In this document: positions 951 through 56,355 of the stretch, in pieces
Layout of the letters: each line of letters opens with the position of its first letter
Numbering within the stretch: the stretch's first letter is position 1
Source: Ruminococcus sp.
GTDB taxonomy: Bacteria; Bacillota; Clostridia; Oscillospirales; Ruminococcaceae
NCBI GenBank assembly: GCA_045587105.1
Contig: JAZNBR010000056.1
Span: 479-64,478 of the forward strand
DNA: 64,000 nucleotides
Direction of reading: 5' to 3'
Made by a program: the position numbers and the translations under genes
The notes under the pieces: model-generated
Told to the model about the DNA's origin: nothing
The model's database searches: none
Seen by the model: only the letters and a program-made list of their open reading frames with translations

Positions 951-1511
951 AATTCCGAATTGGCACCAGCGGTGCCCCCGATTCACGTTTCCGTGCGTAA
1001 ACGCACTCACTCTGTACGGCATGGTCAGTAAAAGCTCGCTCGCTTAGACTATTACCTCGGCAGTTAATTATAAATGCCAGCGGTGCCCCCGATTCACGTT
1101 TTCGTGCGTAAACGCACTCACTCTGTACGGAACGGCAGTCTGCTATCGCATACGGTAGAATTTTAATGCGGAATGCGGAATTCGGAATTCGGAATTCGGA
1201 ATTGTGGTGTCGGCATTCGCCGACGGATTGAAGAAATAATTCCGGCGGCAATGTGTAGGGTGCGATGCCTGCATCGCACCGTTGATATGCCGTTTGATTA
1301 ACGGGACGTCGTGGGTGCCGTCCCCTACATTATGATTCCGTAAGAGTTAAGCGAGCGAGCTTTTACTGACCATGCCGTACAGAGTAAGTGCGAAGCACGG
1401 AAACGTGTTTCGGGGGCACCGCTGGTGCCAATTCCGCATTCCGAATTATTTTAAATCTGTCCCGAAGGGACACCACAAGCTAAAGGCTAATAGCTAAAAG
1501 CTAAACAGCTA
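951..1511. repeat. Mosaic repeat cluster a
   Basis: Module order: L(+) 962-1063; L'(+) 1076-1164; CGGAATK heptamers 1165-1203; B(+) 1204-1233; GTAGGG-hairpin doublet 1254-1329; L(-) 1338-1429; heptamers 1430-1447; B(-) 1448-1477; GCTAANN heptamers 1478-1511. The same modules recur at 13 other sites in the window, in both orientations. Confidence 0.9.
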
Positions 1512-3583: not shown

Positions 3584-3681
3584 AAGTCACCTCCCTTTTT
3601 CTGATATATACATTATACTCGTTTTTTCCGATAATGTCAAGGGCGGCAGCGTGACGGTATGTGTAAAATAAATATAGGCAA

Positions 3682-34223: not shown

Positions 34224-34392
34224 GCTATTAGCCTTTAGCCATTAGCTTATGGTGTCCCTTCGGGACGGATTGAAATATTATACCAGAAAATTATATGAAA
34301 CCGTTTGTAGGGGCGACCCTTGCGGTCGCCCATTGCATTTTGTATAGATGATTGACGGACCCACAACGACACAAAACAACGTAAAATAGCCG
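34223..34392. repeat. Mosaic repeat cluster f
   Basis: TTAGC-type heptamers, B(+) 34249-34276, AT-rich linker, GTAGGG-hairpin 34306-34331, tail. Collinear with the reverse complement of cluster e and with cluster h. Confidence 0.9.
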
Positions 34393-34435
34393 AAATAAGG
34401 TTTTATGGGGAGAAAAATTTCAGGAAGGTGATTAA

Positions 34436-35821
34436 ATGAACAGGAAGCTTAAAAGGTTAATTTCATCCGCAGTATCGCTGACAGCGATTCTTACTCTCTC
34501 AGCCTCGATGACTGCTTATGCCGATATTGAGCCAAATCCTCTCATCAGCAGGAATGCTCCGGCATATGATAACGCAGGTGCTTCGTACTCCGCAAAGCAG
34601 GGCAACGACGAGCATTATTTCTCATTCTGGAACGTCAGCGCTCCGAATTATCTCGCCTACGATCTCTCAGCAGTTCCTCAGGAACAGCGTAAATCCGTCA
34701 TGGCGGTGTGGTACAATACAAGCTCCTACGACGGAATAGGTCAGTATCAGTCACGGAACATGGAGCCTTTCAGCTACACTATCGAGGTGAACAAGGCTGA
34801 TGGCGGCGAATATCCGACTGATGGCTGGGAGGTTGCTGTAACCGTGGACGACAACACGCTCAGCTCTCGTCAGCATGCCGTTGACATGGAGGGATACAAC
34901 TGGATACGTCTTAATGTGAAGTCAACAGACGGCGGTACAGGCTCGAATATCAGCGTGAATTTTGATGTCCACGATATATCCGGCGGAATTTCGGACAGCT
35001 GGCTGTTTTTAGGGGATTCCATTACTGCCGGAGGAATGCACAACTGCTACGGCACAGGCTTTGCAACGTATGTTAATCAGCTTGACAGCCGCTATTTCCC
35101 CATTCAGGAGAACGGCGGAATCGGCGGAATACGCTCCGATGACGGCAAGGAGAACATCGACCGCTGGCTTGAAGCCTATGGCGGAAAATACGTCAGCATT
35201 GCCTACGGAACCAACGACGCATGGGGCAATGACGGCTCCGGTGCGGAAACCTACTACAACAACACAAAGTACATGATAGACGCAGTTCTTGCGGCAGGGA
35301 AGGTTCCCGTACTGCCGAAGATTCCGTATTCCACCAATGCGGATGTTGCCGGACATCTCGGCGATTTCAACGCAATGATCGACAGGCTCTATGAGGAATA
35401 CGGCGAAAAACTCGTTCAGGGACCTGATTTTGAAACGTATTTCCGTAAGAATCCCGAAGGTCTCAGCAGTGACGGAGTTCATCCTTCGTCCGAGGGTTAT
35501 GACGAAATGAGAAGGCTGTGGGCGGAAACGATGTACGAGAGGGTGTACAAAGCGGAGACTGCTCCTCCGCCGGCTGATGAGCCAGATTACGGTGACGCAA
35601 ATCTTGACGGAAATGTAAATCTCTCTGATGCCATTCTGATAATGCAGGCGATAGGAAATCCCGATATGTACGGAATTAACGGCAGTGATTCCTCTCACAT
35701 CACGGAAAAGGGAGCGAAAAATGCCGATGTTTCCGGCGGCGGAGACGGTATAACCAACAATGACGCTCTTACTATCCAGAAATATCTCCTTAAAATGATT
35801 GAAAAACTTCCGGAATCTTAG
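34436..35821 (+). CDS. Secreted SGNH/GDSL esterase with an N-terminal carbohydrate-binding-like domain and a C-terminal dockerin
   Basis: 461 aa with signal peptide, FLGDSIT block, DGVHPS block, and C-terminal DANLDGNVNLSD...GITNNDALTIQKYLL (dockerin). Confidence 0.85.
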   Translation: MNRKLKRLISSAVSLTAILTLSASMTAYADIEPNPLISRNAPAYDNAGASYSAKQGNDEHYFSFWNVSAPNYLAYDLSAVPQEQRKSVMAVWYNTSSYDGIGQYQSRNMEPFSYTIEVNKADGGEYPTDGWEVAVTVDDNTLSSRQHAVDMEGYNWIRLNVKSTDGGTGSNISVNFDVHDISGGISDSWLFLGDSITAGGMHNCYGTGFATYVNQLDSRYFPIQENGGIGGIRSDDGKENIDRWLEAYGGKYVSIAYGTNDAWGNDGSGAETYYNNTKYMIDAVLAAGKVPVLPKIPYSTNADVAGHLGDFNAMIDRLYEEYGEKLVQGPDFETYFRKNPEGLSSDGVHPSSEGYDEMRRLWAETMYERVYKAETAPPPADEPDYGDANLDGNVNLSDAILIMQAIGNPDMYGINGSDSSHITEKGAKNADVSGGGDGITNNDALTIQKYLLKMIEKLPES

Positions 35822-36098
35822 GCAGCGTGACGCTGCACCCGGCTCACGTTTCCGTGCTTCGCACTCACTCTGTACGAGGCGGCAGTCTGCTATCGCATAC
35901 GGCAGAAATACCTGACGATAATTTGTAGGGGCGGACACATAGGTCCGCCCCTACAAATTGATAACGTCAGAAATGTGAGTTTTTTAAATTCATCGGCGAA
36001 GCCGATACAATTAATTCCGAATTCCGAATTCCGCATTCCGCATTAAAATTCTGCCGTATGCGATAGCAGACTGCTGCTCCGTACAGAGTCACGCTGCA
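35821..36098. repeat. Mosaic repeat cluster g
   Basis: L'(+) begins on the G of the TAG stop. Contains a 32-bp perfect palindrome TGTAGGGGCGGAC-loop-GTCCGCCCCTACA at 35924-35955, B(-), heptamers and a partial L'(-). Fills the whole convergent gap. Confidence 0.9.
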
Positions 36099-37271
36099 TT
36101 AGGTTTTTGCCGTTTTCGATTTACATTTATTGTTCCCGACATCGGATTGCGAAACGTCATGCTGTGTATCGGGAGAACTGTTGGTGTCATGCTCGAAGTA
36201 GAGCTTATAGAGAGTAGCAACAAGCGGAACACCAAGAATCATACCGAGAATTCCGAAAAGACCGCCGCCGAGAGTAACCGCCGCAAGAACCCAGATTCCG
36301 GGCAGTCCGATAGATGAGCCGACAACCTTGGGATAAATAAGATTTGTTTCAAGCTGCTGGAGAATAATCAGGAAAACAAGGAACAGCAAAGCCTGCTTCG
36401 GACTTTCAGTGCAGATAATAAACGCACTCAGTCCGGCACCGGCAAAGGCTCCGACAATCGGGATAAGAGCCGTAACTCCGACGATAGTTCCGCACATGGC
36501 GGCATAGGGGAGATGAAGAATTGAAGCTCCGATGAAGGTCAGAGAGCCGATAATGATAGCCTCGATAAACTGTCCGATGAAAAATCCGGTGAAGGTCTCG
36601 TGGGCAACAGAGAAGAAGTGATAAATCTTCCTTGTGGTCGGTTCGCTCATATAGCGATTCATGAGATGACGTGAGTCCTCAGAAAGCTTATCCTTTCTGA
36701 AAAGAAGGTATATAGCGAAAATTGCACCGAGAAGAATGTTTGTTACCGTAGCTGTGACAGCTCCGATAAAGGCGATTATTGAGTTAAAGAATCCGAATGC
36801 ACCGTCAGTAACCTTCTGGGCAATTGAATTAGTATCAAGCTCGATTTCGCTGAGCTGCTTGTAGATGTCCGGATATTCCTCAAGCTTTTTGAGTGCCCAG
36901 TCCTTTGTCTTGACGAAAAGAGGAGGTATTTCCGCATAAATGATCTTGATTGCACTTATAATCTCCGGAATAATAATGTTCAGTATAAGAGCGATGACCG
37001 CAATGACTATCGCGAATGAAAGAAGGATACAGACAGGTCTGCGGCTTCGCTGGATAAATCCGGTATTCTTTTTCGGGAAGTAGTGCTTTTCAAAGAAGCA
37101 CATGATGATATTGAAGATATACGCCATAATACAGCCGATAAACAGCGGAACAAGAGCTTTCAGTGCCGTGAGTGTAAAGCTCTGTATCAGACCAAAATTC
37201 TGTACGATAACACAGACTGCAACCGCAAGAAAGGCAATAAAGACGTAACGTTTTATTTCTTTTTTATCCAT
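36099..37271 (-). CDS. AI-2E family transporter (PerM/UPF0118)
   Basis: 390 aa, about 8 TM segments, characteristic family topology and length. Confidence 0.8.
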   Translation of the reverse strand: MDKKEIKRYVFIAFLAVAVCVIVQNFGLIQSFTLTALKALVPLFIGCIMAYIFNIIMCFFEKHYFPKKNTGFIQRSRRPVCILLSFAIVIAVIALILNIIIPEIISAIKIIYAEIPPLFVKTKDWALKKLEEYPDIYKQLSEIELDTNSIAQKVTDGAFGFFNSIIAFIGAVTATVTNILLGAIFAIYLLFRKDKLSEDSRHLMNRYMSEPTTRKIYHFFSVAHETFTGFFIGQFIEAIIIGSLTFIGASILHLPYAAMCGTIVGVTALIPIVGAFAGAGLSAFIICTESPKQALLFLVFLIILQQLETNLIYPKVVGSSIGLPGIWVLAAVTLGGGLFGILGMILGVPLVATLYKLYFEHDTNSSPDTQHDVSQSDVGNNKCKSKTAKT

Positions 37272-37394
37272 TTCAGAAATGTTCCTCCTTTTCTGGTATT
37301 TTTTTTATTTTATAACGTTTCTGTGATAATCCCGTGTGAAAATTATTAACTTTTTGTAAATAGGTTATCAATAAAATTTTTTGCAGCTTTTTTC

Positions 37395-37423
37395 TTTACA
37401 TTTTCATCAGGATGTGATATAAT
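37395..37423 (+). promoter_or_regulatory. Sigma-A promoter of ddh
   Basis: TTTACA (37395-400), 17-nt spacer, TGaTATAAT (-10 at 37418-23). Confidence 0.6.
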
Positions 37424-37458
37424 ATTTAAAAGTTTGTAATTCACAGGAGGTTATTATC

Positions 37459-38448
37459 ATGAATAAAATCAGAATCGGAATCGCAGGATACGGCAATCTT
37501 GGCAGAGGTGTGGAGCTTGCTCTCAGGCAGAACGACGATATGGAGCTTGCAGGAATCTTTACAAGACGCGCTCCCGAAACAGTCAATACGGCAACAGAAG
37601 GTGTGCCTGTATATCGTCTCAGCGACGCTGAAAGTATGAAGGATCAGATAGACGTTATGATAATCTGCGGCGGAAGTGCAACAGATCTTCCTCAGCAGAC
37701 TCCTGAGCTTGCACAGATATTCAATGTTATCGACAGCTTTGATACTCACGCAAGAATTCCCGAGCATTTCGCAAATGTTGACAAGGCGGCTAAGGAAGCA
37801 GGAAATCTTGCACTCATCTCACTCGGATGGGATCCGGGACTTTTCTCGCTCAACAGACTTTATGCAGAATCAATTCTCCCCAACGGCAAGAGCTATACCT
37901 TCTGGGGAAAGGGCGTAAGTCAGGGACATTCCGACGCTATCAGACGTGTAAACGGCGTAAAGAAGGGAATTCAGTATACTGTTCCCGTTGAGGCGGCAAT
38001 GGACGCAGTTCGTTCAGGAAGTCAGCCGGAGCTTTCCACCCGTGACAAGCATACAAGAGTCTGCTATGTTGTTGCCGAGGAGGGAGCAGATCTTGCCGCA
38101 ATCGAGAACGAGATAAAGACAATGAAGAACTACTTTGACCAGTACGATACAACAGTGAATTTCATAACTGACGAGGAGTTCGATTCTGTTCACAACAAGA
38201 TGCCTCACGGCGGCTTCGTGATGAGAAGTGCCATGACTGGCGACGGTGAAAAGACTCACCAGATGATTGAGTACTCGCTGAAGCTTGAATCCAATCCGGA
38301 ATTTACAGCAAGCGTGCTTGTCTGCTATGCAAGAGCTCTCGCAAGACTCAGAGCAGAGGGGAAAACCGGCTGTATGACAGCTTTTGACGTTGCTCCGGCT
38401 TATCTCTCAAGACTCTCCGCTGAAGAACTCAGAGCACAGATGTTATAA
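37459..38448 (+). CDS. ddh: meso-Diaminopimelate D-dehydrogenase
   Basis: 329 aa: IRIGIAGYGNLGRG, GWDPGLFS, WGKGVSQGHSDA. Confidence 0.92.
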   Translation: MNKIRIGIAGYGNLGRGVELALRQNDDMELAGIFTRRAPETVNTATEGVPVYRLSDAESMKDQIDVMIICGGSATDLPQQTPELAQIFNVIDSFDTHARIPEHFANVDKAAKEAGNLALISLGWDPGLFSLNRLYAESILPNGKSYTFWGKGVSQGHSDAIRRVNGVKKGIQYTVPVEAAMDAVRSGSQPELSTRDKHTRVCYVVAEEGADLAAIENEIKTMKNYFDQYDTTVNFITDEEFDSVHNKMPHGGFVMRSAMTGDGEKTHQMIEYSLKLESNPEFTASVLVCYARALARLRAEGKTGCMTAFDVAPAYLSRLSAEELRAQML

Positions 38449-38801
38449 GGCACCAGCGGTGCCCCCGATTCACGTTTCCGTGCTTCGCACTCTCTCTGTA
38501 CGGCATGGTCAGTAATAGCTCGCTCGCTTAGACTATTACCTCGGCAGCAGCGTGACGCTGCACCCAGTTCACGTTTCCGTGCTTCGCACTCACTCTGCAC
38601 GGAGCGAAAGTCTGCTATCGCATACGATAGAATTTTAATGCGGAATTCGGAATTGTGGTGTCCCTGACGGGACAAATTTAAAATATTATACCGGAAATTT
38701 ATATGTAACCAATTGTAGGGTCGACCATTGGTCGTCCGCATAAATGTCCGTATAACGCAAAATAACAAAAAAATAATGGCGACCATTTTTGTGGTCGCCA
38801 T
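38449..38801. repeat. Mosaic repeat cluster h
   Basis: Full long element (L+L') 38449-38645 starts right after the ddh TAA. It is followed by heptamers, B(+) 38656-38690, linker, GTAGGG-hairpin 38713-38740 and a terminator hairpin. Confidence 0.9.
38767..38801 (-). terminator. Terminator for the minus-strand lipoprotein gene (part of cluster h)
   Basis: ATGGCGACCA-loop-TGGTCGCCAT; on the minus strand it is followed by TTATTTTTTTG. Confidence 0.7.
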
Positions 38802-38808
38802 ACGTTTT

Positions 38809-39297
38809 TTACTTGATTATGAATTCAGCATAGACCATTTCTGTGTCAAAATCACCAGCATCTCTGAAATTCATAATTTCTTTTCCGATACGATATTTAC
38901 CGTCAGATAATTTACCATAAAGCCATTCCCAGTCTACATCCCATTGAGTGGTACTCTCTTTCTGAATAATCCATGCTTCAGAAGTCCATGCAAGTTGGTA
39001 TTCCTGAGGAAGATATTCAACATCCGCCCAGCCTGATTTTCCTGATTTCTGAATGACATAATAGCTTCCGGTGTTTAACTTTGCTGTATTTTCTCCGCCT
39101 GAATGGGTACAGACAATCGTCATGCCTTTTGAGGTTACATTTTCCGCTTTCAGGGTGATACCCCACTGGTTTGGTTTCGCATCGCTGATTTTATTTTCAA
39201 TGCTATTCTGAGATGTACTTCCGTCAGCTTCTGAGCCGCATCCCACAACTGAAAACATACAGACCAATACCAGAATTAATGCTATAATATTTTTCAT
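38809..39297 (-). CDS. Hypothetical lipoprotein
   Basis: 162 aa; lipobox FSVVGC; beta-rich body; no family recognised. Confidence 0.65.
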   Translation of the reverse strand: MKNIIALILVLVCMFSVVGCGSEADGSTSQNSIENKISDAKPNQWGITLKAENVTSKGMTIVCTHSGGENTAKLNTGSYYVIQKSGKSGWADVEYLPQEYQLAWTSEAWIIQKESTTQWDVDWEWLYGKLSDGKYRIGKEIMNFRDAGDFDTEMVYAEFIIK

Positions 39298-39336
39298 ACA
39301 ATCACGCTCTTTCAGGAATAATATTTTAATTCGTTG

Positions 39337-39547
39337 GTGTAGGGGGCGGTGCCTTCGACGCCCCGTTACGCACGGAAACGTGAATCGGGGACACCGCTGG
39401 TGTCGGGTGCAGCGTCACGCTTTCATATAAAAACCAACGCATTATGTTTCTAACGTATGCGATAGCAGACTGCCGTTCCGTACAGAGTAAGTGCGTTTAC
39501 GCACGGAAACGTGAGCTGGGTGCAGCGTCACGCTGCCCGCTGGTGCC
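39337..39547. repeat. Mosaic repeat cluster i
   Basis: GTAGGG-hairpin 39338-39366, a partial L(-), and a full L'(-) 39445-39547 whose nested hairpin ends 1 nt from the anti-sigma stop codon. Confidence 0.9.
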
Positions 39548-39548
39548 A

Positions 39549-42071
39549 TTAAAATACAGCTTCGTCTATAACCTGCATTGTTTCAATGTCAAATGAAATA
39601 AACTTGCTTCCGCAGAGAATATACGCATAATCCCCTACATATACAGAGCGGCAGAAAATATCATTTTCGCTGTATTCTTCAATCTCACTGTCAATAGTTC
39701 CTCTGTACACGAATTCTCCGTCCACGAAATTGAAGAACGCATAGCCGCTTTCATACTCCAGATATTCGTAATCGTAAGCCCATGTTTCCTTCATTATCGG
39801 CACACCGATGAGATTCTTCTCCGGAGCGATAAGCAGAGCCTTTCTCTCCCATACAGCCACGGAATTTATCCAGCTGTTGTCGTCCTGAAGTATCTCGTAT
39901 GTGTCGATAGCGTCAAGGTTGTAGGGGTCGGAATTGTCGAACATTGTCAGCTTGATACCCTGTTCGATGCCGTCCTCGTCAGCGGCTACACCGAAGCCGA
40001 GAAGCATTCCTTCCTCCCACTGCTGCATATAGGTGCTGTATCCAAGAATCTTGAATTCGTCCATGATTGTCGGGTTTGCCGGATCGCTGAGGTCAATTGC
40101 AAAGAGGGGATCTGTCTGCTCGTAGGTCACGACATAGGCTGTATTTCCGCTGAAATTAACGGACTTTATCTCCTCGTTAACGCCGAAATCAGTCAGACTT
40201 CCCACGATATTCATATCCATATCAAGAACATAAACACGGTTGTCACGCTTTGTGTGGGTATGCGATACAAAGCTCTCAGTGTGGGCTTTTCCGTTTTCAT
40301 CGTACCATGTGTATTCCTGTTCCTTGTCCTCGTAGGAATCCTTTGTGGTCGCAATGCGGAAGTATCCGCCGTATTCGCTCATTGAGAACTGATCCTTGAT
40401 TCTGCCCTCTACCTTGCCGTTTGCCGCAGGAGTAATGCTTCCGCCGCCGATAGCAATTCTTGTGATTTCTGTATCATCCCAGCCGATCGTGGTGTAGAGA
40501 TTTCCGGCAGAGCTGTAAATTTCGCCTGTATAACCGGCAAGAGCCTTTGAATCAACGGCTGTGATTTCGCCGGAAGTGTTGAGGTCGATACTGCCGATAA
40601 CTGTGCAGCTGAAAGTATTTCCCTCCTCAAGCTCCTCCTCAGGCATGAGGATATCCTCAGGTGCAAGGAATGTCGCAGACTTGCTCACGCCGCACTTTGG
40701 AACATAGCTGTCAAGCTGTTCCTCGTCGTCAATGTGGCTGAACTGCTGTGTTGTGTAGTCGGAAACGAGGTACATAATTCCGTCAGGAGCAATTCTCACG
40801 TCATCGTAGGAGCCTTCCTGATAGTATGTGTCGATAAGCTCCGGAGATTCGCCTGTTGTGTATACCGATACGAAAACTGCACTCTTTGTGCTGAAATAAG
40901 TTGATTCAGGTGTCTTGATCCTGTCACCGATGAGCGTATCAAATATAATATTTCCGCTGTTATATTCTTCATCTTTGCTGCCGGAAACAGTTCCCACAAC
41001 GAGAAGCATATCGTTGTAGAGATACATATCGTTGACGTAAAGGCTCTTTTCGGTGTAGCCCTCTCCGAAAGCGTAGTCGGAAGTAACCTCGATGTCGATA
41101 GCCTCCGCAGAAGTGAACTCTCCGTCATCAACAGCGGCGATATTCAGCTTTGCGGATGTTCCGTTATAGTAGGAGCTGAGACCGAGACGGTATTCAAGAG
41201 CTCCATTTTCGCTGTTATACAGATAGTAGATGTATTCGCCGTCTGTCTTTACGATATCAGCTTCAAGAACGCCCTCCTCCTGATTGTGAGTTTCGGAATG
41301 CTCAGGAGCTTCTTCTTCGTCATCTGATACAGGAGGCTCATCTTCCGGTATTGTTTCAGTAGCAGCGTCAGTAGCGGGTTCAACCGGCGGTTCTTCTGGA
41401 ACAGTTTCAACCGGAGGTTCTTCGGGAGCTATCTCTGTTGCCGGTTCTTCGGGAGCGGTTTCCGGTGCGTCCTGTCTCAGATCTTCATATTCTGCCGCCG
41501 GAACGGTTTCTGGCTGAGGAGCTTCTGCCGCACCATCGGAAGCGGAGTAGTCACCCTTGCCGACAGCGTCTGACGTACCATTTGTTACGGTCGAGTTTGT
41601 ATCGACTGCTGATTCAAAGTAGACTTCATTTTTAACCATATCATCGTAATTTGTGAACTTATGATTCTCGTTATACTTTTCCTCAGCTTTTTTATACAGC
41701 TGGTATACTTCCTTGTAACCGGAAGCTCCGCTCATGTAAGAAGCCTGAACGTTTACGGTGAGATCATCGTCGTCGCCGAGATTGAAAACAGGCAGCTCCG
41801 GAAGCTTCTTGTCAGTGGTGGTTTCAACTTCTGATGTATTTTTTCCTTTATTAAATGAATCCCTTTGTCCTGCAAAATAAACCGATGTTCCGCAGATTAC
41901 CGCACAGGCTGCCGCACCTGCCGTAATTCTTCCGGCGGTTTTCTTTATATTTCTTCTCTTTTTCGCCGGAGCCTTTTCGTCCAGCATGATTTTTATATTC
42001 TCCGGCTCAAGCTCAACCGGAATCGGCTTGTTGTTGAGTGTCTCTCTGATTTTTTCATCGTTTGTACTCAT
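39549..42071 (-). CDS. Membrane anti-sigma factor with a large extracellular beta-propeller domain (Beta_propel/COG4880-like)
   Basis: ORF 39549..42173 trimmed to ATG 42071 behind AAGGAG, 15 nt after the sigma stop. Short cytoplasmic N-terminus, one TM segment, Pro/Glu linker, then EADIVKTDGEYIYYL-type propeller. Confidence 0.75.
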   Translation of the reverse strand: MSTNDEKIRETLNNKPIPVELEPENIKIMLDEKAPAKKRRNIKKTAGRITAGAAACAVICGTSVYFAGQRDSFNKGKNTSEVETTTDKKLPELPVFNLGDDDDLTVNVQASYMSGASGYKEVYQLYKKAEEKYNENHKFTNYDDMVKNEVYFESAVDTNSTVTNGTSDAVGKGDYSASDGAAEAPQPETVPAAEYEDLRQDAPETAPEEPATEIAPEEPPVETVPEEPPVEPATDAATETIPEDEPPVSDDEEEAPEHSETHNQEEGVLEADIVKTDGEYIYYLYNSENGALEYRLGLSSYYNGTSAKLNIAAVDDGEFTSAEAIDIEVTSDYAFGEGYTEKSLYVNDMYLYNDMLLVVGTVSGSKDEEYNSGNIIFDTLIGDRIKTPESTYFSTKSAVFVSVYTTGESPELIDTYYQEGSYDDVRIAPDGIMYLVSDYTTQQFSHIDDEEQLDSYVPKCGVSKSATFLAPEDILMPEEELEEGNTFSCTVIGSIDLNTSGEITAVDSKALAGYTGEIYSSAGNLYTTIGWDDTEITRIAIGGGSITPAANGKVEGRIKDQFSMSEYGGYFRIATTKDSYEDKEQEYTWYDENGKAHTESFVSHTHTKRDNRVYVLDMDMNIVGSLTDFGVNEEIKSVNFSGNTAYVVTYEQTDPLFAIDLSDPANPTIMDEFKILGYSTYMQQWEEGMLLGFGVAADEDGIEQGIKLTMFDNSDPYNLDAIDTYEILQDDNSWINSVAVWERKALLIAPEKNLIGVPIMKETWAYDYEYLEYESGYAFFNFVDGEFVYRGTIDSEIEEYSENDIFCRSVYVGDYAYILCGSKFISFDIETMQVIDEAVF

Positions 42072-42085
42072 ATTGCAAACTCCTT

Positions 42086-42595
42086 TCACGGCACATCCGG
42101 CGTCAGCTGAAGCCGCAGGACCTTTTTTATCGCTGACAGCCTTGCCCTTACCGTACTTGCTTTTATATTGCATATTTCTGATATTTCTTCGCTTGAATAT
42201 CCTCCTAAAACGGACATCGACAGAAGCAGTCTGGAGCCTGTATCAAGCTTTTCAATCGACTCTTTCAGCTCGACTGACTCGAAGTCAAATTCGTTTATGG
42301 ATGTATCCTCTTTAAGTTCGTCAGGAACTTCAAAATAATTCCGCTGGATCTTCTTTATTTTCGCAGAAAGTATCTTCATTATCCAGCCGCGGAAGCTTTC
42401 TGGTTTTTTCAGTTTCTTTATTGAGCAGAAGGCGTCCAGTACAGTTTCGCTCACGGCGTCTGAGGCGTCGTGGGAGCTTCTCAGGCTATACAGTGCGATA
42501 TGGTACATATCCTTGTAGACCTTTGCGTATAGTCTTGAGAAGGCTTCACTGCTGCCCTGCTGTGCAAGACGGACATCTGCGGAGAAATCATTCAT
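42086..42595 (-). CDS. ECF (group IV sigma-70) RNA polymerase sigma factor
   Basis: 169 aa with regions 2 and 4 recognisable (FSRLYAKVYKDMYHIA...; LLLSMSVLGGYSSEEISEI). Confidence 0.88.
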   Translation of the reverse strand: MNDFSADVRLAQQGSSEAFSRLYAKVYKDMYHIALYSLRSSHDASDAVSETVLDAFCSIKKLKKPESFRGWIMKILSAKIKKIQRNYFEVPDELKEDTSINEFDFESVELKESIEKLDTGSRLLLSMSVLGGYSSEEISEICNIKASTVRARLSAIKKVLRLQLTPDVP

Positions 42596-42663
42596 TACAA
42601 TTCCCTCCTTTGAATCGATTCATGAATATAGTGTCAGAAACGGGACAAATTGACAATCAGCAG

Positions 42664-42718
42664 ATAAAAAATCGGCTATATGCACAAAATGCCACACAGC
42701 GAATTGTACATATAGCCG
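42664..42718 (-). terminator. Strong terminator downstream of glk
   Basis: CGGCTATATGYACA stem pair. The minus-strand hairpin is followed by ATTTTTTAT. It is a sequence relative of the terminator at 52922-52978. Confidence 0.75.
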
Positions 42719-42793
42719 AAAAAGTCATAGGTTAAAGGCGATACCTCACAGCTTTTGTGCAAAGCCGTCAGGCGTGCTTTGTGCGGTATTGCC

Positions 42794-43750
42794 TTAAGCG
42801 TTTGCCTTTCCGAGGAATGCCGCACCGATGATTCCGGCGTCGTTGCCGAGCTTTGCAATAACAATCTCAGCGTTCTTCTCGGAATTTCTTGTGTAAACTT
42901 CTTCCTTTACAAGTGCCTTTACAGGGAGAAGCAGAGGATCGCCCTCGTTGCACACGCCGCCGCCGATGCAGAGTACATCAGGCTGGAAGATGTTGATTGT
43001 ATTTGTGATTCCTGCTGCAAGATACTTTATGTACTTGTCAACGACATCCTTTGCAGCCTTGTCGCCGGCTCTCATTGCGTCGAAGGATGTTCTTGCAGTC
43101 ACCTTGTTCTTCTCAGCAGCCATTTCTGCCATTGTGCAGTCGGGGAACATCTCAATAGCTTCCTTTGTCATTCTGATAAGTCCTGTTGCTGAGGAATATG
43201 CCTCAAAGCAGCCCTTTCTTCCGCATGAGCACTGTGCTCCGTCAACCTCGATAACAGTGTGACCTATCTCAGCACCGGCAAAGTTTGAGCCGGAATAAAT
43301 CTTTCCGTCAACGATGATTCCGCCGCCTACGCCTGTTCCGAGCGTGATACATACTGCATTCTTCGCACCCTTTGCCGCACCTGCAACGTATTCGCCGTAT
43401 GCAGCTGCATTTGCGTCGTTCTCGATGAATACCGGCTTGTCGATTGTCTCCTGAATGTACTTCACCATGGGAGTATTCTTGAAGCCGAGATTGTTTGAGT
43501 ACTCGATGATTCCTGTTGCACTGTTTGCGATGCCGGGAGTTCCCACGCCAATCCACTCGATATCGTCGATAGTGAGGTCAGCGTTCTTTACTGCCTGAAG
43601 TGCAACTCTTGCCATATCGTCAGCGATTTCCTTTTCAGGACGCGGACAGTTTGTCTTTGTGCTTGCCTTTGCGATGATGTTGTATTCCTCGTCAACTACT
43701 CCTGCAACGATATTTGTACCGCCAAGGTCAATTCCTACATAGTATTTCAT
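42794..43750 (-). CDS. glk: ROK-family glucokinase
   Basis: ORF trimmed to ATG 43750 (MKYYVGIDLGGTN...) behind AGGAGGA. ROK motifs and the CxCGxxGC zinc site (CSCGRKGC). Confidence 0.9.
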   Translation of the reverse strand: MKYYVGIDLGGTNIVAGVVDEEYNIIAKASTKTNCPRPEKEIADDMARVALQAVKNADLTIDDIEWIGVGTPGIANSATGIIEYSNNLGFKNTPMVKYIQETIDKPVFIENDANAAAYGEYVAGAAKGAKNAVCITLGTGVGGGIIVDGKIYSGSNFAGAEIGHTVIEVDGAQCSCGRKGCFEAYSSATGLIRMTKEAIEMFPDCTMAEMAAEKNKVTARTSFDAMRAGDKAAKDVVDKYIKYLAAGITNTINIFQPDVLCIGGGVCNEGDPLLLPVKALVKEEVYTRNSEKNAEIVIAKLGNDAGIIGAAFLGKANA

Positions 43751-43752
43751 TT

Positions 43753-44706
43753 TTAAATCCTCCTGTTTATTGTTGTCATAATTAAACTGCATGTGCCTTT
43801 TATATTAACTGTACCTGTTCCTGCCGGAACAAATACGCTTGAGCCTTTTTTAACGGGAATCCCCGATATATCGCCTTCTCCGTCCATTACAAGAACGTGT
43901 ATGAAGGTATCTGAGACATTGAATTTAAATTCATCTGATATGTCATACTTTGTTGTAATGAAGTATTCGCATTCACACAGCGGACGGCACTCTGCACCGG
44001 AAAGACTTTTCTTCTCCGGCTGTCCGTATTTTTCAGAAGGCGGCTCCGGCTTCGTGACCTCAAGAGCCTTTTCAATGTGAAGCTCTCTCGGCTTTCCGTC
44101 TGCACCGATACGTCCGTAATCGTAAACACGATACGTCACGTTTGAACTCTGCTGAATCTCAGCGATAAGGATTCCCTTTCCGATTGCATGGAGAGTTCCC
44201 GGCGTGATGAAGAATACATCGCCCTTATGAACCTTCACACGATTGAGCTTGTCAAGGAGCGTATTTTCCTCAATTGCCTTCCGGAATTCTTCCTTCGTGA
44301 TAGTCTCCTTAAAGCCGTAGATAAGCTCCGCACCCTCGTCGCACTCAGCGATGTACCACATTTCGGTCTTGCCGTTGTCGCCCTCGTATTTCCGTGCGTA
44401 TTCGTTATCGGGATGAACCTGAACAGACAGATTATCCCTTGCGTCGATAAGCTTTATGAGAATCGGGAATTCCCCGAAAGCCGTGCAGTCTGTTCTGAAT
44501 GCTTCGGGATGCTTCCTGAGAAAAGCGTCAAGCGTCATTCCGCTGAATTCTCCGCCTGATATAACGCTCATGCCGTCCTTGTGACAGCTAAGCTCCCAGC
44601 TTTCTGCGAGCCTGTCAAGACTGCTTTCCTTACCGAATTCCTCTCTCAGTCTTGTTCCGCCCCAGATGTAGTCCTTAATCGGCGGTATAAGTTCAAATGG
44701 CTTCAT
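43753..44706 (-). CDS. manA: Mannose-6-phosphate isomerase, class I
   Basis: ORF trimmed to ATG 44706 (MKPFELIPPIKDYIWGG...) behind GGAGGA. Motifs QVHPD and HAIGKG. Confidence 0.88.
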   Translation of the reverse strand: MKPFELIPPIKDYIWGGTRLREEFGKESSLDRLAESWELSCHKDGMSVISGGEFSGMTLDAFLRKHPEAFRTDCTAFGEFPILIKLIDARDNLSVQVHPDNEYARKYEGDNGKTEMWYIAECDEGAELIYGFKETITKEEFRKAIEENTLLDKLNRVKVHKGDVFFITPGTLHAIGKGILIAEIQQSSNVTYRVYDYGRIGADGKPRELHIEKALEVTKPEPPSEKYGQPEKKSLSGAECRPLCECEYFITTKYDISDEFKFNVSDTFIHVLVMDGEGDISGIPVKKGSSVFVPAGTGTVNIKGTCSLIMTTINRRI

Positions 44707-45427: not shown

Positions 45428-45460
45428 AATATTATCTCCTTTGTTCTTTGTCTACTCTAT

Positions 45461-45508: not shown

Positions 45509-45877
45509 GGCACCAGCGGTGCCCCCGATTCACGTTTCCGTGCTTCGCACTCACTCTGTACGGCATGGTCGGTAATAGCTCGCTCGCTTAGATTATTACC
45601 TCGGCAGTCAATTATAAATGCCAGCGGGCAGCGTGACGCTGCACCCGATTCACGTTCCCATGTGCTGACGCACATTCCTCTGTACGGAACGGCAGTCTGC
45701 TATCGCATACGGCAGAATTTTAATGCGGAATTGGCACCAGCGGTGCCCCCGAAACACGTTTCCGTGCTTCGCACTCACTCTGTACGGCATGGTCGGTAAT
45801 AGCTCGCTCGCTTAGACTATTGCCTCGGCAGTCAATTATAAATGCCAGTGGGCAGCGTGACGCTGCCCGCTGGTGCC
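45509..45877. repeat. Mosaic repeat cluster j: full long element 45509-45725, a second L copy 45737-45838, and a nested terminal hairpin
   Basis: About 95% identical to the copies at 962-1175 and 38449-38645. The last hairpin, GGCACCAGYG[GGCAGCGTGACGCTGCC]CGCTGGTGCC, ends directly at the GGDEF gene stop. Confidence 0.92.
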
Positions 45878-47671
45878 TTAGATGTAGGCGTTCTTTTTGA
45901 GCAGAGCAGTGACAGTCCGTCCGATAATAGAGAGATATCCGATATCCGAAACAGACCATTTCTTAAAACGGCTGATATAGCAGAAGGAAATCATTCCCTT
46001 GATAACATTGTTTTCCGTCATGAGATACTGTACAGCACCGCCGATTTTCTGTGCGGTCAGCTGGGCGAAGGCGTTGTCGTCACGGCCTTCAAGCTCGTTC
46101 ACGTTGTCAATAACAAAGATACCGTCGCCGGTAAAACGCTCTGTATAGGCATTTTCAAGGAGATATGCGGCATTCCTCGACTGTGCGTTTCCGCAGCTGA
46201 GAATCAGATTCATATCCTTTCCGGCAAAAACGCAGATATCGTCAATCCCGAACTGCGAGCGTATCTGCTCCAGAAGGACGGAAATATCGGGGATTCTTCC
46301 CAGCACGAGACTTTCCGCAAGCCGTCCCATAAAGCTGAGCGTTTCGGACGAGGAATTATTGTTGCTGAGATATACAATTTTGTTTTCGGCGTCCTTTTCA
46401 ACGGGACCATGCTTTTCGATATCGTAGATAACGTATCTGTTTTGACCCTTCTGCTGTGCTATATACAGGGCTTTGTCCGCCTGCATGAAAAGCTCGTCGT
46501 AGTCGGAGCTGTCCTTCGGATAAGAGGAAATTCCCATTGAGCAGGTCAGCCGGAAATTTTCTGACCGGTCAGCGAAGGCAAATTCCGTGTTCGTGCGGAT
46601 TGCCCTGAGAATACCACGGAGATCCTCCTCGTCCCTGATATCCTCCAGCACGATGAGGAAGCTGCTTCCGCTGATTCTTCCTGCAAGACCTCGTGAGCCT
46701 ATTTCGTTCTTTATGATATCAGCAACACGGTAGATTACCTCGTCCCCGAAAAGATGACCGTAGCTGCTGTTGATTCCGGTGAAGTTGTCGATATCAAGAA
46801 TCACAAGAGCAACGGTGCCGGAGGGCTTTTCCGCAAGAAGCTTTACTGCAAAGGAGGTCACGGAATTCTTGTTGAGAAGTCCGGATATGGAGTCCCTGTT
46901 TGATTCGATAGCGAGGTTGATATCCTTGCTTTTCTGACCGGAGCTTACAACGGAGATAATTCCGCTGACCTTTTTTAATTCGGGAGAATCGCATCGTGTA
47001 ATTCCACGGAAAAGGCAGAGTTCACGTTTTTCTCCGCCGGTCAGGACAGAGGTTTCAATTTCGTGGTCAAAGCGGTACACACCGTTTCTGATATCACGGC
47101 ACAGGCTGTTGAAGGCGTCGGTATAGCGTGACTGGATATATCCTGCGTTGATGGAATCCAGCCGCCATTTTTCGAGGTTTTCCCTTACAAGTACGATTTC
47201 ACGGCAGCAGTCGGACATATAGATTTTAAGCTCCTCGGTTTCAAAGCTGTATTCAAAGGCAAGATCGCTTACAAGGCTGAGGATGTAGCGGTATTCCGAG
47301 ATTTTCCGCTGTCGGAGGTACGCAAGCTGCTCCAGTGAAAAGACATCGCTGAAGGATATGCTGAAAAGCGGTTCATTGCCGGAGGATTGCGGAAGCTTTT
47401 TCACTGCGGCAAGGATATACCGTGTGATTCCGTTGATTCCGGTCATGCGGATTACCGTCCGACGGATTTCTCCCTCCGGAACCTCATTTATACATTCAAG
47501 GATTCTCGGAAAATCCTCGTCTTGTATGGTGCGGCGGATTGAGTAGATGACATCGTTGCCGAAATACCGGAAAAACACCTCGTCAGCACTCTGCGTGTGG
47601 AAGCTTTTATCCACGACAACACGTCCTATGCTGTACATTTCTCCGGTAAGAAATTCTCCTGAGTTTTCCAT
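45878..47671 (-). CDS. GGDEF-domain protein with a degenerate active site (SGSSF) flanked by uncharacterised N- and C-terminal domains
   Basis: 597 aa with GGAGG RBS. The GGDEF fold is evident (ILDIDNFTGINSSYGHLFGDEV...CSMGISSYP...ADKALYIAQQKG). The signature pentapeptide reads SGSSF (46658-46672). Confidence 0.85.
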   Translation of the reverse strand: MENSGEFLTGEMYSIGRVVVDKSFHTQSADEVFFRYFGNDVIYSIRRTIQDEDFPRILECINEVPEGEIRRTVIRMTGINGITRYILAAVKKLPQSSGNEPLFSISFSDVFSLEQLAYLRQRKISEYRYILSLVSDLAFEYSFETEELKIYMSDCCREIVLVRENLEKWRLDSINAGYIQSRYTDAFNSLCRDIRNGVYRFDHEIETSVLTGGEKRELCLFRGITRCDSPELKKVSGIISVVSSGQKSKDINLAIESNRDSISGLLNKNSVTSFAVKLLAEKPSGTVALVILDIDNFTGINSSYGHLFGDEVIYRVADIIKNEIGSRGLAGRISGSSFLIVLEDIRDEEDLRGILRAIRTNTEFAFADRSENFRLTCSMGISSYPKDSSDYDELFMQADKALYIAQQKGQNRYVIYDIEKHGPVEKDAENKIVYLSNNNSSSETLSFMGRLAESLVLGRIPDISVLLEQIRSQFGIDDICVFAGKDMNLILSCGNAQSRNAAYLLENAYTERFTGDGIFVIDNVNELEGRDDNAFAQLTAQKIGGAVQYLMTENNVIKGMISFCYISRFKKWSVSDIGYLSIIGRTVTALLKKNAYI

Positions 47672-52007: not shown

Positions 52008-52120
52008 GATACCTCCATGGATTATTCTTTCTTCTTATTTTATGCTATTATATCATTATACCATTAAATCAGCGATATGTAAAGCTTTTCGGCGAAAAAA
52101 CATTCATGTCATTTTTATTT

Positions 52121-52261
52121 CGTAGGGGACGGTACTCACGACGTCCCGTTAATTAAACGACATATCATCGGGGCGTCGAAGGCGCCGCCCCCTACACAAT
52201 TATATTTTTCATAAAGTTTTAGTTGTTACAAGGTAGTAGGGGCAACCCATGTGTTCGCCCG
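52121..52261. repeat. Mosaic repeat cluster l
   Basis: GTAGGG-hairpin doublet 52122-52196 plus a third, imperfect hairpin at 52234-52261. Confidence 0.85.
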
Positions 52262-55245: not shown

Positions 55246-55440
55246 AATGCGTAATTGTGGTGTCGGCATTCGCCGACGGATTGAAATCATCTGTTGCCAC
55301 AATCGGATATTTCACGTTTTGCGGACACGTCACGCTGCTGCCGAGGTAATAGTTTAAGCGAGCGAGCTTTTACTGACCATGCCGGACATAGGAATGTGCG
55401 TCAGCACATGGGAACGTGTTTCGGGGGCACCGCTGGTGCC
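55246..55440. repeat. Mosaic repeat cluster m
   Basis: Heptamer remnant, B(+) 55257-55287, and an inverted L copy from about 55311 to 55440 whose terminal GGCACCGCTGGTGCC hairpin overlaps the degV stop codon by 1 nt. Confidence 0.88.
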
Positions 55441-56312
55441 TATTTATTTTTTCTGCGTACAAGAACGGCAACGACATCGGGACCGATATTTGAAGCAACA
55501 GCTGCTCCGACAGCGGCGAGCATTTCAGCCTTTCTGCCGGTACGCTTGACAAGCTCCTTTTCGATTTCCTTTGCAAGAGTGTTATCACGTCCGTGTATGA
55601 GAAGATACGGACTCTGTGGAGTCATATTTCTTTCAACGCAGTCAACGAGCTTCGGAACGATATTCTTTTCGCCCCTGATTTTCTCAACTACCTCTGTTTC
55701 GCCGTCAGCAAAGAGGATTATCGGCTTGAGTCCGAGAAGCTCTCCTGCAAAAGCGGCAGCAGCGGAAACTCTTCCGGATTTTTTTGCGTATTTAAGATTG
55801 TAAGGCACAACGTAAACGCCGCATACATTGAACCAGTCCTCAAGATATGCGATAATTTCCTTAGCGTCTGCACCCTTGCGGATTTTCTTTACAGCCTCCA
55901 TGATCGGGTAGCCGTAGAATACTGTATAGCATCCGGAGTCAAGGTTGTAGATGTTGATTTTTCCCTTTGCTTCGGGATTGTTCTCGAAGAAATCCTTTTT
56001 TGCGGTGAGGGAGTTGTTGAATGTACCTGAACCCTTTGAATTCAGTGAAACGCTGATAATATCGGTGTATCCCTGATCGTAGATTTCCTTGTAGGCTTCT
56101 TCGAATTCATAGGGATTGACCATAGCGTGCTTGGGGATTTCGTTTGACTGAGCCATCAAATCGTAGACCTCCTGAGTGCTCTTGTCGAAGATTTCACGGA
56201 AGGTCTCGCCGTTTATGGTAACCTTAAGGGGAAGCACCTTGATTCCGAGCTCCTGAATAGTTTCAAGAGGAAGATCGCAGCAGCTGTCTGTAAGAATCAT
56301 AATTTTTGACAT
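55440..56312 (-). CDS. DegV-family fatty-acid-binding protein
   Basis: The track ORF starts at GTG 56321; ATG 56312 is preferred (MSKIMILTDSCCDLP...). Typical DegV length and N-terminus. Confidence 0.85.
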   Translation of the reverse strand: MSKIMILTDSCCDLPLETIQELGIKVLPLKVTINGETFREIFDKSTQEVYDLMAQSNEIPKHAMVNPYEFEEAYKEIYDQGYTDIISVSLNSKGSGTFNNSLTAKKDFFENNPEAKGKINIYNLDSGCYTVFYGYPIMEAVKKIRKGADAKEIIAYLEDWFNVCGVYVVPYNLKYAKKSGRVSAAAAFAGELLGLKPIILFADGETEVVEKIRGEKNIVPKLVDCVERNMTPQSPYLLIHGRDNTLAKEIEKELVKRTGRKAEMLAAVGAAVASNIGPDVVAVLVRRKNK

Positions 56313-56355
56313 AATAATCACTTTCTTTCTTTAAGATGATATGGTTTCCGCCGGC

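What the first reader, a model, noticed from the sequence alone, without database searches (positions are those of the whole stretch)
38449..38645. An internally duplicated ~200-215-bp long element, with 3 full-length copies and at least 8 partial copies in 64 kb
Full copies at 962-1175, 38449-38645 and 45509-45725 are collinear and roughly 90-95% identical.

Structure, in order:
1. Terminal hairpin GGCACCAGCGGTGCC.
2. Core CCGATTCACGTTTCCGTGC-loop-GCACTCACTCTGTACGG.
3. Tail 1: CATGGTCAGTAATAGCTCGCTCGCTTAGACTATTACCTCGGCAG, which contains a 7-bp stem GTAATAG/CTATTAC.
4. Linker TYAATTATAAATGCCAG, absent from the 38449 copy.
5. A second hairpin, GGCAGCGTGACGCTGC, or a truncated GCCAGCGGTGCC in the 962 copy.
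6. A second core.
7. Tail 2: AACGGCAGTCTGCTATCGCATACGGCAGAATTTTAATGCGG.

The element always runs into a CGGAATK heptamer array. Partial or inverted copies are at 1338-1429, 35821-35905, 36040-36098, 39367-39420, 39445-39547, 45737-45877 and 55311-55440.

The small core hairpin differs in sequence between copies but keeps its pairing: GTGC-TTC-GCAC, GTGCG-TAAA-CGCAC and ATGTGC-TGAC-GCACAT. This pattern is typical of a structured RNA or a structure-specific DNA substrate. Candidate identities are a MITE, an sRNA gene family, or a 3'-UTR stabiliser/terminator cassette.
Basis: seen in the sequence. Interest (0 to 1): 0.62.

Follow-up and report, generated by a model that had tools for sequence, protein, structure and literature searches.

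The report
Hairpin-headed mosaic repeat after stop codons
The ~200-bp "element" is two joined copies of a ~90-base repeat unit found only in the rumen genus Ruminococcus, which starts with a small hairpin right after gene stop codons and has multiplied and reshuffled in this genome, so it is a new family of a known kind of intergenic repeat rather than a new kind of gene.

Summary

The 200-bp "element" is not the unit of repetition. It is a dimer of two ~90-100-nt units:
- X = hairpin H1 + core + tail 1.
- Y = hairpin H2 + core + tail 2.

The genome (2.28 Mb, Ruminococcus MAG) has 58 units, 47 of them full. They occur alone, as X-Y, or in tandem, mixed with heptamer arrays and REP-like hairpins.

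A covariance model finds the unit in 73 of 151 species of the genus. It finds none in 198 genomes of 165 other genera of the family. Rfam, phage and plasmid searches gave nothing.

In low-copy species the unit lies in sense orientation between the stop codon and the intrinsic terminator of PFOR, GroEL, ArgG and PheT. In this genome about 20 array heads start 0-1 nt after a stop codon.

Only the 5' head hairpin covaries genus-wide. No terminal inverted repeats or target duplications were found. Arrays differ by whole modules between genomes about 95% identical.

Best reading (0.5): a BIME/BOX-like mosaic repeat, probably co-transcribed in 3' UTRs. Transcription could not be tested.

The parts
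962..1063 (+). X unit: head hairpin H1 (962-976), CCC, core with GTGCG-TAAA-CGCAC, tail 1
   Evidence: Sequence. nhmmer X model positions 1-99, E = 5.8e-31.
1064..1075 (+). Linker TTAATTATAAAT between the X and Y units
   Evidence: Sequence. blastn-short hit to the linker.
1076..1175 (+). Y-type unit with a truncated H1-type head (GCCAGCGGTGCC), core and tail 2. It runs into the CGGAATK heptamer array at 1169-1206.
   Evidence: Y model positions 9-103, E = 1.4e-29.
1342..1429 (-). X unit in inverted orientation, preceded on its own strand by heptamers
   Evidence: (inverted pairs I1, I3, I4).
35821..35909 (+). Y unit. The first G of head H2 is the last base of the TAG stop of the GDSL-esterase/dockerin gene (34436..35821).
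36036..36098 (-). Y unit with an internal deletion: the 5' half of the head (TGCAGCGTGAC) is joined to ...TCTGTACGG plus tail 2. The head starts right after the TAA of gene 36099..37271 (minus strand).
38449..38547 (+). X unit of the finding. H1 starts at the base after the TAA of the meso-DAP dehydrogenase gene (37459..38448).
38545..38645 (+). Y unit of the finding (H2, core, tail 2), followed by two heptamers, a GTGGTGTCCC..GGGACA hairpin and a REP-like hairpin
38776..38801 (.). Bidirectional intrinsic terminator downstream of the array. It places the whole array inside the presumed 3' UTR.
   Evidence: 11-bp stem with T-runs on both strands.
39368..39403 (-). Partial unit: GACACC..GGTGTC head plus the 5' half of the core, cut off by a REP-like hairpin
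39438..39547 (-). Y unit with a stacked head (5' half of H1, then H2), starting 1 nt after the TAA of the Beta_propel gene (39549..42173). The whole array is absent from this intergenic region in G070 and G014.
45509..45607 (+). X unit of the third composite
45608..45730 (+). Linker plus a Y unit with core variant ATGTGC-TGAC-GCACAT and tail 2
45733..45877 (+). X unit, then linker, then a nested palindromic head (GCCAGTGG-GCAGCGTGACGCTGC-CCGCTGGTGCC). The minus-strand reading of that head starts right after the TAA of the GGDEF gene (45878..47671).
55338..55440 (-). X unit. The first G of its head completes the TAG stop of the DegV gene (55440..56321).

Best explanation
The ~200-bp 'element' is a dimer of two ~90-100-nt units of one interspersed repeat family that is restricted to the genus Ruminococcus.

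Unit anatomy (shown):
- A 5' G+C-rich hairpin 'head' whose sequence varies while its pairing is kept.
- Then (A)CCC.
- Then conserved, mostly unpaired boxes: CACGTT, GCTCGTAAACTCGC (GTGCGTAAACGCAC in this lineage), TCACTCTGTA and AGTCTGCT(A/T)TCGC(A/T)TACGG.

Ancestral setting (shown): one unit in sense orientation, starting 0-5 nt after a stop codon and followed by the gene's intrinsic terminator.

State in this genome's lineage (shown): the family has amplified to about 58 units and split into sub-types. There are two heads, three core variants and two tails. Units are stacked into arrays together with heptamer repeats and REP-like hairpins.

Inferred steps:
- The family behaves as a selfish or near-neutral mosaic repeat of the BIME/BOX kind.
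- It spreads and reshuffles by recombination or template switching between modules, or through an unidentified trans-acting enzyme. It does not look like cut-and-paste transposition.
- It is co-transcribed as part of 3' UTRs.
- The stop-proximal hairpin can act there as a barrier to 3'-to-5' exonucleases, as REP does in E. coli.
For: Modularity:
- Units occur alone, as X-Y, and as Y-Y-Y. Heads can be stacked.
- Copy number is 58 units, 47 of them full.

Distribution:
- All units lie in intergenic DNA except two small overlaps with ORFs.
- The unit is found in 73 of 151 genomes of the genus, with counts from 1 to at least 28. It is in none of 198 genomes of 165 other genera of the family.
- An exact-pattern scan hits only Ruminococcus MAGs.

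Position after stop codons:
- About 20 of about 33 array-first heads in G000 directly follow the TAA, or complete the TAG, of a co-oriented ORF.
- Five more such cases occur in 0.36 Mb of G070.
- In other species the unit follows the stop of PFOR (7 species), GroEL (2), ArgG (4) and PheT, with a terminator downstream.
- In the window, the terminator at 38776-38801 lies downstream of the array that follows the DAP dehydrogenase gene.

Head hairpin:
- 98.6% of cells are paired, and all 6 pairs show compensatory changes. It is the only helix RNAalifold predicts.

Turnover:
- Arrays differ by whole modules between G000 and G070, which are 93-98% identical in genes.
- The PFOR unit is lost in G079 and in the G000 clade.

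No match elsewhere:
- No Rfam, phage or plasmid match.
Against: - No mobilising enzyme was identified, and no insertion with defined ends or a target duplication was caught. 'Mobile' is therefore inferred from copy number and turnover only.
- The unpaired boxes are well conserved across about 45 species, and the unit persists at orthologous 3'-UTR sites of housekeeping genes. Both are also what a functional RNA element would show.
- Transcription was not demonstrated. Only unstranded, fragmentary metatranscriptome contigs were available.
- In G000, 11 of 29 units in tandem-gene intergenic regions are antisense to the flanking genes. An mRNA-stabiliser role therefore cannot apply to all copies.
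- Gene boundaries come from an ORF heuristic, not from a gene finder.
Confidence: 0.5

Rival explanations
1. The unit is a functional RNA module: a cis-acting 3'-UTR element, or a 3'-UTR-derived small RNA. It would consist of a 5'-terminal hairpin (protection against 5'-to-3' decay in Firmicutes), C-rich single-stranded boxes (possible seed or protein-binding sites) and the gene's terminator as its 3' end. The arrays in this genome would be secondary duplications.
For: - The unit lies in sense orientation between stop codon and terminator at orthologous sites after PFOR, GroEL, ArgG and PheT in many species.
- The head shows compensatory changes at the same locus between close relatives: ArgG has GCACGT/ACGTGC against GCACGG/CCGTGC, and PFOR has GCAGCG/CGCTGC against GCGCGG/CCGCGC against CAGCC/GGCTG.
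- The unpaired boxes are conserved across about 45 species.
- The tail is C-rich: 31% C against 20% G on the sense strand.
Against: - About half of the species lack the unit. It has been lost at PFOR in G079 and in the G000 clade.
- Copy number ranges from 1 to at least 28.
- Many G000 copies are antisense to the flanking genes or lie in divergent intergenic regions.
- Sub-families differ between genomes, as in lineage-specific bursts.
- There is no helix beyond the head.
- No transcript evidence exists.
Confidence: 0.25
2. The units are DNA-level sites. Hairpin or cruciform heads plus sequence boxes would be bound by a host protein (nucleoid, topoisomerase or recombinase), as BIMEs bind gyrase and IHF. 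Alternatively they are substrates of a single-strand-specific HUH or REP-associated (RAYT-like) enzyme that copies them.
For: - Near-palindromic heads work in either orientation.
- Both orientations occur relative to the flanking genes.
- Recurrent breakpoints fall just past the hairpin loops...AGCGG| in H1 and ...GTGAC| in H2.
- The genome has two RAYT-like Y1 genes and GTAG-headed REPs in the same intergenic regions.
- Presence of the unit and of Y1_Tnp are weakly associated across 151 genomes: 35/38/20/58, odds ratio about 2.7.
Against: - The heads lack the conserved GTAG of REPs.
- Unit-rich genomes G014, G021 and G161 have no Y1_Tnp match.
- The weak association could reflect genome size or phylogeny.
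- A purely DNA-level role does not predict the strict sense orientation after stop codons seen in low-copy species.
Confidence: 0.12
3. The copies are classical MITEs, or remnants of the ends of a known IS or prophage.
For: - The 11-nt GGCACCAGCGG / CCGCTGGTGCC sequences can bracket a copy (45733-45877).
- The head resembles the terminus of a true MITE in the same genome: GGCAACACCGC... matches in 8 of 11 positions.
Against: - Most units have a head at one end only and no inverted terminus.
- There is no target-site duplication in the filled-versus-empty comparison.
- There is no match in phage or plasmid collections or in viral contigs.
- No transposase is flanked by these ends.
Confidence: 0.05

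Closest known systems
BIMEs (bacterial interspersed mosaic elements) built from REP sequences in E. coli; described from my own knowledge (Gilson/Bachellier; Newbury et al. 1987 for mRNA stabilisation)
   Same: - Intergenic mosaics of short hairpin modules combined in several orders and orientations with other short motifs.
- Mostly located downstream of genes in transcribed regions.
- Hairpins that can block 3'-to-5' decay.
- Clustering by lineage.
   Different: - The head is not a GTAG-type REP.
- Each unit carries about 75 nt of conserved, non-palindromic sequence.
- There is a strong polarity: the head starts at the stop codon.
- No link to a RAYT was shown.
- True GTAG-REP doublets exist separately in the same intergenic regions.
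Pneumococcal BOX elements (boxA-boxB(n)-boxC), with RUP and SPRITE; Croucher et al. 2011, PMC3049150
   Same: - A modular repeat in a Firmicute, with variable numbers and orders of modules.
- Restricted to one species group.
- Thought to be parasitic, with slow turnover.
- Co-transcribed with neighbouring genes and able to affect them through secondary structure (abstract of PMC3049150).
   Different: - No sequence similarity.
- BOX elements have defined A and C ends. Here each unit is head + core + one of several alternative tails.
- Abutting the stop codon and conserved 3'-UTR positions after PFOR, GroEL and ArgG are not BOX features, as far as I know.
Neisserial intergenic mosaic elements (NIMEs: dRS3 repeats flanking RS units); from my own knowledge
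   Same: - Arrays of alternating short hairpin-like repeats and longer units filling intergenic regions.
- Associated with rearrangement and exchange of neighbouring genes.
   Different: - Different sequences and taxon.
- dRS3 repeats are phage integration sites. Nothing comparable was shown here.
Short tandem heptamer repeats in intergenic DNA (cyanobacterial STRR; TAACTGA repeats of Beggiatoaceae, PMC4679880, seen)
   Same: The CGGAATT/CGTAATG and AGCYNTT heptamer arrays that flank the units are of this kind.
   Different: The heptamers accompany the X/Y units. They are not the units themselves.

Membership tests
MITE (miniature inverted-repeat transposable element) | Terminal inverted repeats at both ends | tested here: not met
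   Units have a hairpin head at the 5' end only, and the tails end in non-complementary sequence. One copy (45733-45877) happens to end in an inverted head.
MITE (miniature inverted-repeat transposable element) | Target-site duplication flanking the insertion, with an empty site in relatives | tested here: not met
   At intergenic region 39298-39548 an 'empty' state exists in G070 and G014. The array replaces 21 nt of heptamer sequence there, with no duplication. Other differences are whole-module replacements. A different family in the same genomes does show clean TTAA(G) duplications, so the method can detect them.
REP / REPIN with RAYT | Conserved GTAG tetranucleotide next to an imperfect palindrome | tested here: not met
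   The 5' flanks of heads are TAA/TA, AATT or another module, never a conserved GTAG. GTAG-headed hairpins are a separate family in the window (D3, D7, D9).
REP / REPIN with RAYT | Co-occurrence with a single-copy RAYT (Y1 transposase) gene | tested here: inconclusive
   G000 has two RAYT-like ORFs. Across 151 genomes the two traits overlap weakly (35/38/20/58), and unit-rich G014, G021 and G161 lack Y1_Tnp.
BIME-like mosaic repeat | Intergenic clusters made of a few short motifs in variable order and orientation | tested here: met
   H1, H2, core, tails 1 and 2, linkers, heptamers and REP-like hairpins combine in many orders.
BOX-like modular repeat | Defined terminal modules with a variable number of internal modules | tested here: inconclusive
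   Arrays begin with a head, but their 3' ends are not defined by one module.
Structured RNA family (any Rfam family) | Match to a curated covariance model | tested here: not met
   No hit at gathering score in the 64-kb window. Only chance-level hits outside the unit in E-value mode.
Structured RNA (general) | Conserved secondary structure supported by covariation over most of its length | tested here: not met
   Only the 6-bp head helix is supported. The core helix is 63% paired with two central pairs broken, and the tail helix is 79% paired with many mismatches. The fold z-score is -1.3.
Intrinsic terminator | G+C-rich hairpin followed directly by a T-run | tested here: not met
   Heads are followed by (A)CCCG..., not by T's. 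The scan places the terminator downstream of the array. Terminators also follow the unit in other species.
Independent sRNA gene | Own promoter upstream and own terminator | tested here: not met
   The head begins 0-1 nt after the upstream stop codon, and no promoter-like site lies in front of the units. A 3'-UTR-derived RNA remains possible.
Independent sRNA gene / 3'-UTR element | Detectable transcript of defined ends and strand | not testable with these tools
   Only unstranded Logan contigs of metatranscriptomes were available.
IS200/IS605-derived palindrome-associated element | Sub-terminal hairpins at both ends and a fixed 4-5-nt target 5' of the left end | tested here: inconclusive
   There is one hairpin only. 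The left flank is often (N)TAA or (N)TA, but other repeat families in this genome also abut stop codons.

The most novel reading that the evidence does not exclude
The ~90-nt unit is a previously undescribed functional RNA module of Ruminococcus. It would be a 3'-UTR element or 3'-UTR-derived small RNA made of a 5' hairpin starting at the stop codon, C-rich single-stranded boxes and a terminator. It would have been kept after PFOR, GroEL, ArgG and PheT for a long time. In some lineages it would have escaped into a proliferating, recombining repeat, giving a case in which a functional RNA motif and a selfish repeat are the same sequence.
Probability: 0.25. Interest if true: 0.65.

Novelty: new variant of a known kind. 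Interest (0 to 1): 0.45.

Why it matters
Ruminococcus flavefaciens-group bacteria are key fibre degraders of the rumen. Nearly all of their genomes are fragmented MAGs.

Practical consequences:
- This family, with its companion repeats, covers 10-20% of intergenic DNA in this genome.
- Contigs repeatedly end in these repeats, which suggests they break assemblies.
- The breakpoints of gene-order differences between close species lie in intergenic regions that carry repeats.
- A model for the unit can mask or annotate it.

Biological interest:
- The precise start of a covarying hairpin at the stop codon is unusual for an interspersed repeat.
- So is its long persistence in the 3' UTRs of highly expressed housekeeping genes.
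- Together they give a tractable system for asking whether such repeats shape mRNA 3' ends in Firmicutes.

Tried and rejected
- Rfam at gathering score and in E-value mode: no family.
- blastn against plasmid and phage collections: no match.
- A 17-mer scan of viral contigs gave 16 loci, but none matches the unit HMMs, so these are chance hits.
- Whole-element folding: not better than shuffles on either strand.
- Core hairpin as a conserved RNA helix: rejected genus-wide.
- A small ORF starting at the GTG in the H2 loop is open in some Y copies. I rejected it from direct reading of the sequences and of alignment A2: variant c has an in-frame TGA, and one-base indels are frequent across the family.
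- RAYT as the mobilising enzyme: no strict co-occurrence.
- Target-site duplications: none at the one clean polymorphic site.
- RNA evidence: metagenome and metatranscriptome contigs are short, unstranded and break inside the repeats, so they show nothing firm.
- Literature search found no description of these repeats in Ruminococcus.
- Long-range pairing CACGTT/AACGTG, seen in the PFOR-type 3' UTRs: not general, and it had no power to be tested.

Full report
**1. The observation**

The three ~200-bp copies are at the stated coordinates and are collinear. They are 91-93% identical over aligned columns and 80-83% identical when gaps are counted. In the copy of the finding the modules are: H1 38449-38463, core 38464-38503, tail 1 38504-38547, H2 38545-38561, second core 38562-38602, tail 2 38603-38643. 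Two heptamers, a GTGGTGTCCC..GGGACA hairpin and a REP-like hairpin follow.

The window is contig C56:479-64478 of a 2.28-Mb, 42.7% G+C draft genome of 78 contigs.

**2. The ~200-bp form is not the repeat unit**

Module-level BLAST and nhmmer over the genome show two related units:
- X = head hairpin H1 (GGCACCAGCGGTGCC) + CCC + core + tail 1. There are 15 full copies.
- Y = head hairpin H2 (GGCAGCGTGACGCTGC) + ACCC + core + tail 2. There are 32-33 full copies.

After overlaps are removed there are 58 units, 47 of them full.

The core has three variants: GTGC-TTC-GCAC (23 copies), GTGCG-TAAA-CGCAC (13) and ATGTGC-TGAC-GCACAT (13).

The units share intergenic regions with other repeat families. 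These are CGGAATT/CGTAATG and AGCYNTT heptamer arrays, GTGGTGTCCC..GGGACA hairpins and GTAG-headed REP doublets. Repeats of all kinds cover 10-20% of intergenic DNA.

**3. Position and polarity**

In G000, about 20 of about 33 array-first heads start directly after the TAA of a co-oriented long ORF, or supply the G of its TAG.

Six cases lie in the window:
- GDSL esterase with dockerin (34436..35821)
- gene 36099..37271
- meso-DAP dehydrogenase (37459..38448)
- a Beta_propel protein (39549..42173; 1 nt away)
- a GGDEF protein (45878..47671)
- DegV (55440..56321)

The genes are unrelated in function. Five further cases appear in 0.36 Mb of a second MAG, G070.

Other heads abut the -35 box or the ribosome-binding site of divergent genes. 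One ORF ends at the TGA in the H2 loop.

The array after the DAP dehydrogenase gene is followed by a strong bidirectional terminator at 38776-38801. No T-run follows any head. The arrays therefore lie where a 3' UTR would be. This is inferred, not shown.

Abutting stop codons is not unique to this family. Heptamer arrays and a true MITE do it too. In tandem-gene intergenic regions 18 units are sense and 11 are antisense. Convergent regions are over-represented, with 16 of 52 placed units against 12% of all intergenic regions.

Gene boundaries come from an ORF heuristic.

**4. Distribution**

An exact 26-base pattern occurs only in Ruminococcus MAGs from ruminant guts, including one labelled R. 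flavefaciens.

A covariance model of the Y unit finds it in 73 of 151 genomes of the genus. It finds no copy in 198 genomes from 165 other genera of the same family.

Phage and plasmid collections and Rfam give nothing. The 17-mer hits in viral contigs are chance. I found no paper describing these repeats.

**5. The ancestral setting**

In other species the best copies sit in sense orientation, starting 0-5 nt after a stop codon and followed by an intrinsic terminator. The preceding genes are:
- pyruvate:ferredoxin oxidoreductase, in seven species
- GroEL, in two species
- argininosuccinate synthase, in four species, each of which has this single copy only
- PheT, where the stop codon is the TGA of the head loop

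At one and the same locus the head differs by compensatory changes:
- ArgG: GCACGT/ACGTGC against GCACGG/CCGTGC
- PFOR: GCAGCG/CGCTGC, GCGCGG/CCGCGC and CAGCC/GGCTG

The PFOR unit has been deleted in G079 and is absent in the clade of G000, G070 and G014. It is therefore dispensable.

**6. Structure**

The test alignment has 62 distinct copies from about 45 species. The alignment was fitted to the covariance model.

| Helix | Cells paired | Notes |
|---|---|---|
| Head | 98.6% | All six pairs change on both sides |
| Core | 63% | The two central pairs are unpaired in about 50 of 56 sequences (GCTCG-TAAA-CTCGC) |
| Tail | 79% | Many mismatches |

RNAalifold on the same alignment predicts the head helix only. 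A mutual-information scan finds no other Watson-Crick pair set. The whole 226-nt composite folds no better than shuffled sequence (z = -1.3).

There it does vary with pairing kept, including an A-T, G-T, G-C series at one position. The remainder of the unit is conserved as sequence rather than as structure, and it is C-rich on the sense strand (31% C, 20% G).

**7. Turnover and mechanism**

G070 is identified as RGIG6295 by its contig lengths. It is 93-98% identical to G000 in genes.

Differences in X/Y content between the two genomes:
- The intergenic region 39298-39548 carries a 186-nt array in G000. In G070 and G014 the same place holds 21 nt of heptamer sequence. There is no target duplication.
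- After the DAP dehydrogenase gene all three genomes keep TAA followed by GGCA(C/A)CAGCGG, but what follows differs. G000 has X-Y. G070 has a unit with a third kind of tail and then Y. G014 has half a head, then heptamers, a REP and an inverted unit.
- Distant congeners have a plain terminator at this position.
- In the 16% of G070 that I fetched, at least five loci differ in X/Y content. All differences are whole-module changes.

In the same comparison another family shows clean insertions with TTAA(G) duplications, so such events are detectable.

Breakpoints recur just past the hairpin loops...AGCGG| in H1 and ...GTGAC| in H2.

Gene order differs between G000 and G014, and the breakpoints lie in repeat-bearing intergenic regions.

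Two RAYT-like Y1 genes exist in G000. Across 151 genomes, however, the Y1 profile and the unit profile overlap only weakly (35/38/20/58), and several unit-rich genomes lack Y1.

I therefore infer spread and reshuffling by recombination or template switching among modules, or by an unknown enzyme. Classical transposition is not supported.

**8. RNA evidence**

Only Logan contigs of metagenomes and metatranscriptomes were available. They are short and unstranded, and they break inside the repeats. One 90-nt metatranscriptome contig joins the end of the PFOR gene to the first ~63 nt of its 3' UTR in G063.

**9. Verdict**

The finding is a real, undescribed, genus-restricted family of hairpin-headed mosaic repeats. 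It is closest in kind to E. coli BIMEs and pneumococcal BOX elements (PMC3049150).

It differs from those families in three ways:
- a strict head-at-stop-codon polarity
- a long, conserved, non-palindromic body
- persistence in the 3' UTRs of housekeeping genes

Confidence in the readings:
- Selfish or near-neutral repeat co-transcribed in 3' UTRs: 0.5
- Functional 3'-UTR RNA module: 0.25
- DNA-level protein site or HUH substrate: 0.12
- MITE or IS remnant: 0.05

Noticed in passing
window ~42700-42793 (stop of 42794..43792 is followed by GGCAATACCGCACAAAGC...); also G000 C18:8973-9056 and C76:10254-10259 against G070: A separate, true MITE-like family has termini GGCAACACCGCACAAAG...CTTTGTGCGGTGTTGCC. 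It shows clean presence/absence between G000 and G070, with a duplicated TTAA(G). It often sits on TAA stop codons.
   Followed up: partly
window 1248-1329, 3676-3757, 52115-52196, 59915-59996; G000 C72:8588-9136 and C69:5728-6375: GTAG-headed REP doublets (REPIN-like) share intergenic regions with the X/Y units. The genome has two single-copy RAYT-like Y1 transposase ORFs, one of them followed by a REP-like hairpin.
   Followed up: partly
L101 (G070 C13) ~5100-5620 against G000 C73:17117-17307: G070 has a RAYT-like gene with two REP arms (GTAGGGGACGGCGTCCTCGACGTCCC / GGGACGTCGAGGACGCCGTCCCCTAC) inside its reading frame. At the same place G000 has heptamers, a hairpin and an inverted X unit instead of the gene.
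   Followed up: no
window 1169-1206, 11166-11190, 38636-38654; 1460-1511, 34225-34250: Two kinds of heptamer arrays (CGGAATT/CGTAATG and AGCYNTT) flank the units and themselves often begin at stop codons. The CGTAATK and TTAGCYN forms close all three reading frames. They are comparable to the TAACTGA repeats of Beggiatoaceae (PMC4679880).
   Followed up: no
window 34000-45450 against G014 C68:4900-16050: The order and orientation of three gene blocks (34002-35816, 36193-38460, 38754-45441) differ between G000 and G014. All breakpoints lie in repeat-bearing intergenic regions.
   Followed up: partly
G000 C66:61884-62738; L116 (G002 C5): Two genes use the TGA in the loop of the head hairpin as their stop codon. 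One is an ORF in G000 and the other is PheT in G002. The 5' arm of the hairpin therefore encodes their last three residues.
   Followed up: no
window 7108-7388 and 25514-25849: Coding tandem repeats with periods of 30 nt and 120-138 nt lie inside long ORFs. They are unrelated to the finding.
   Followed up: no
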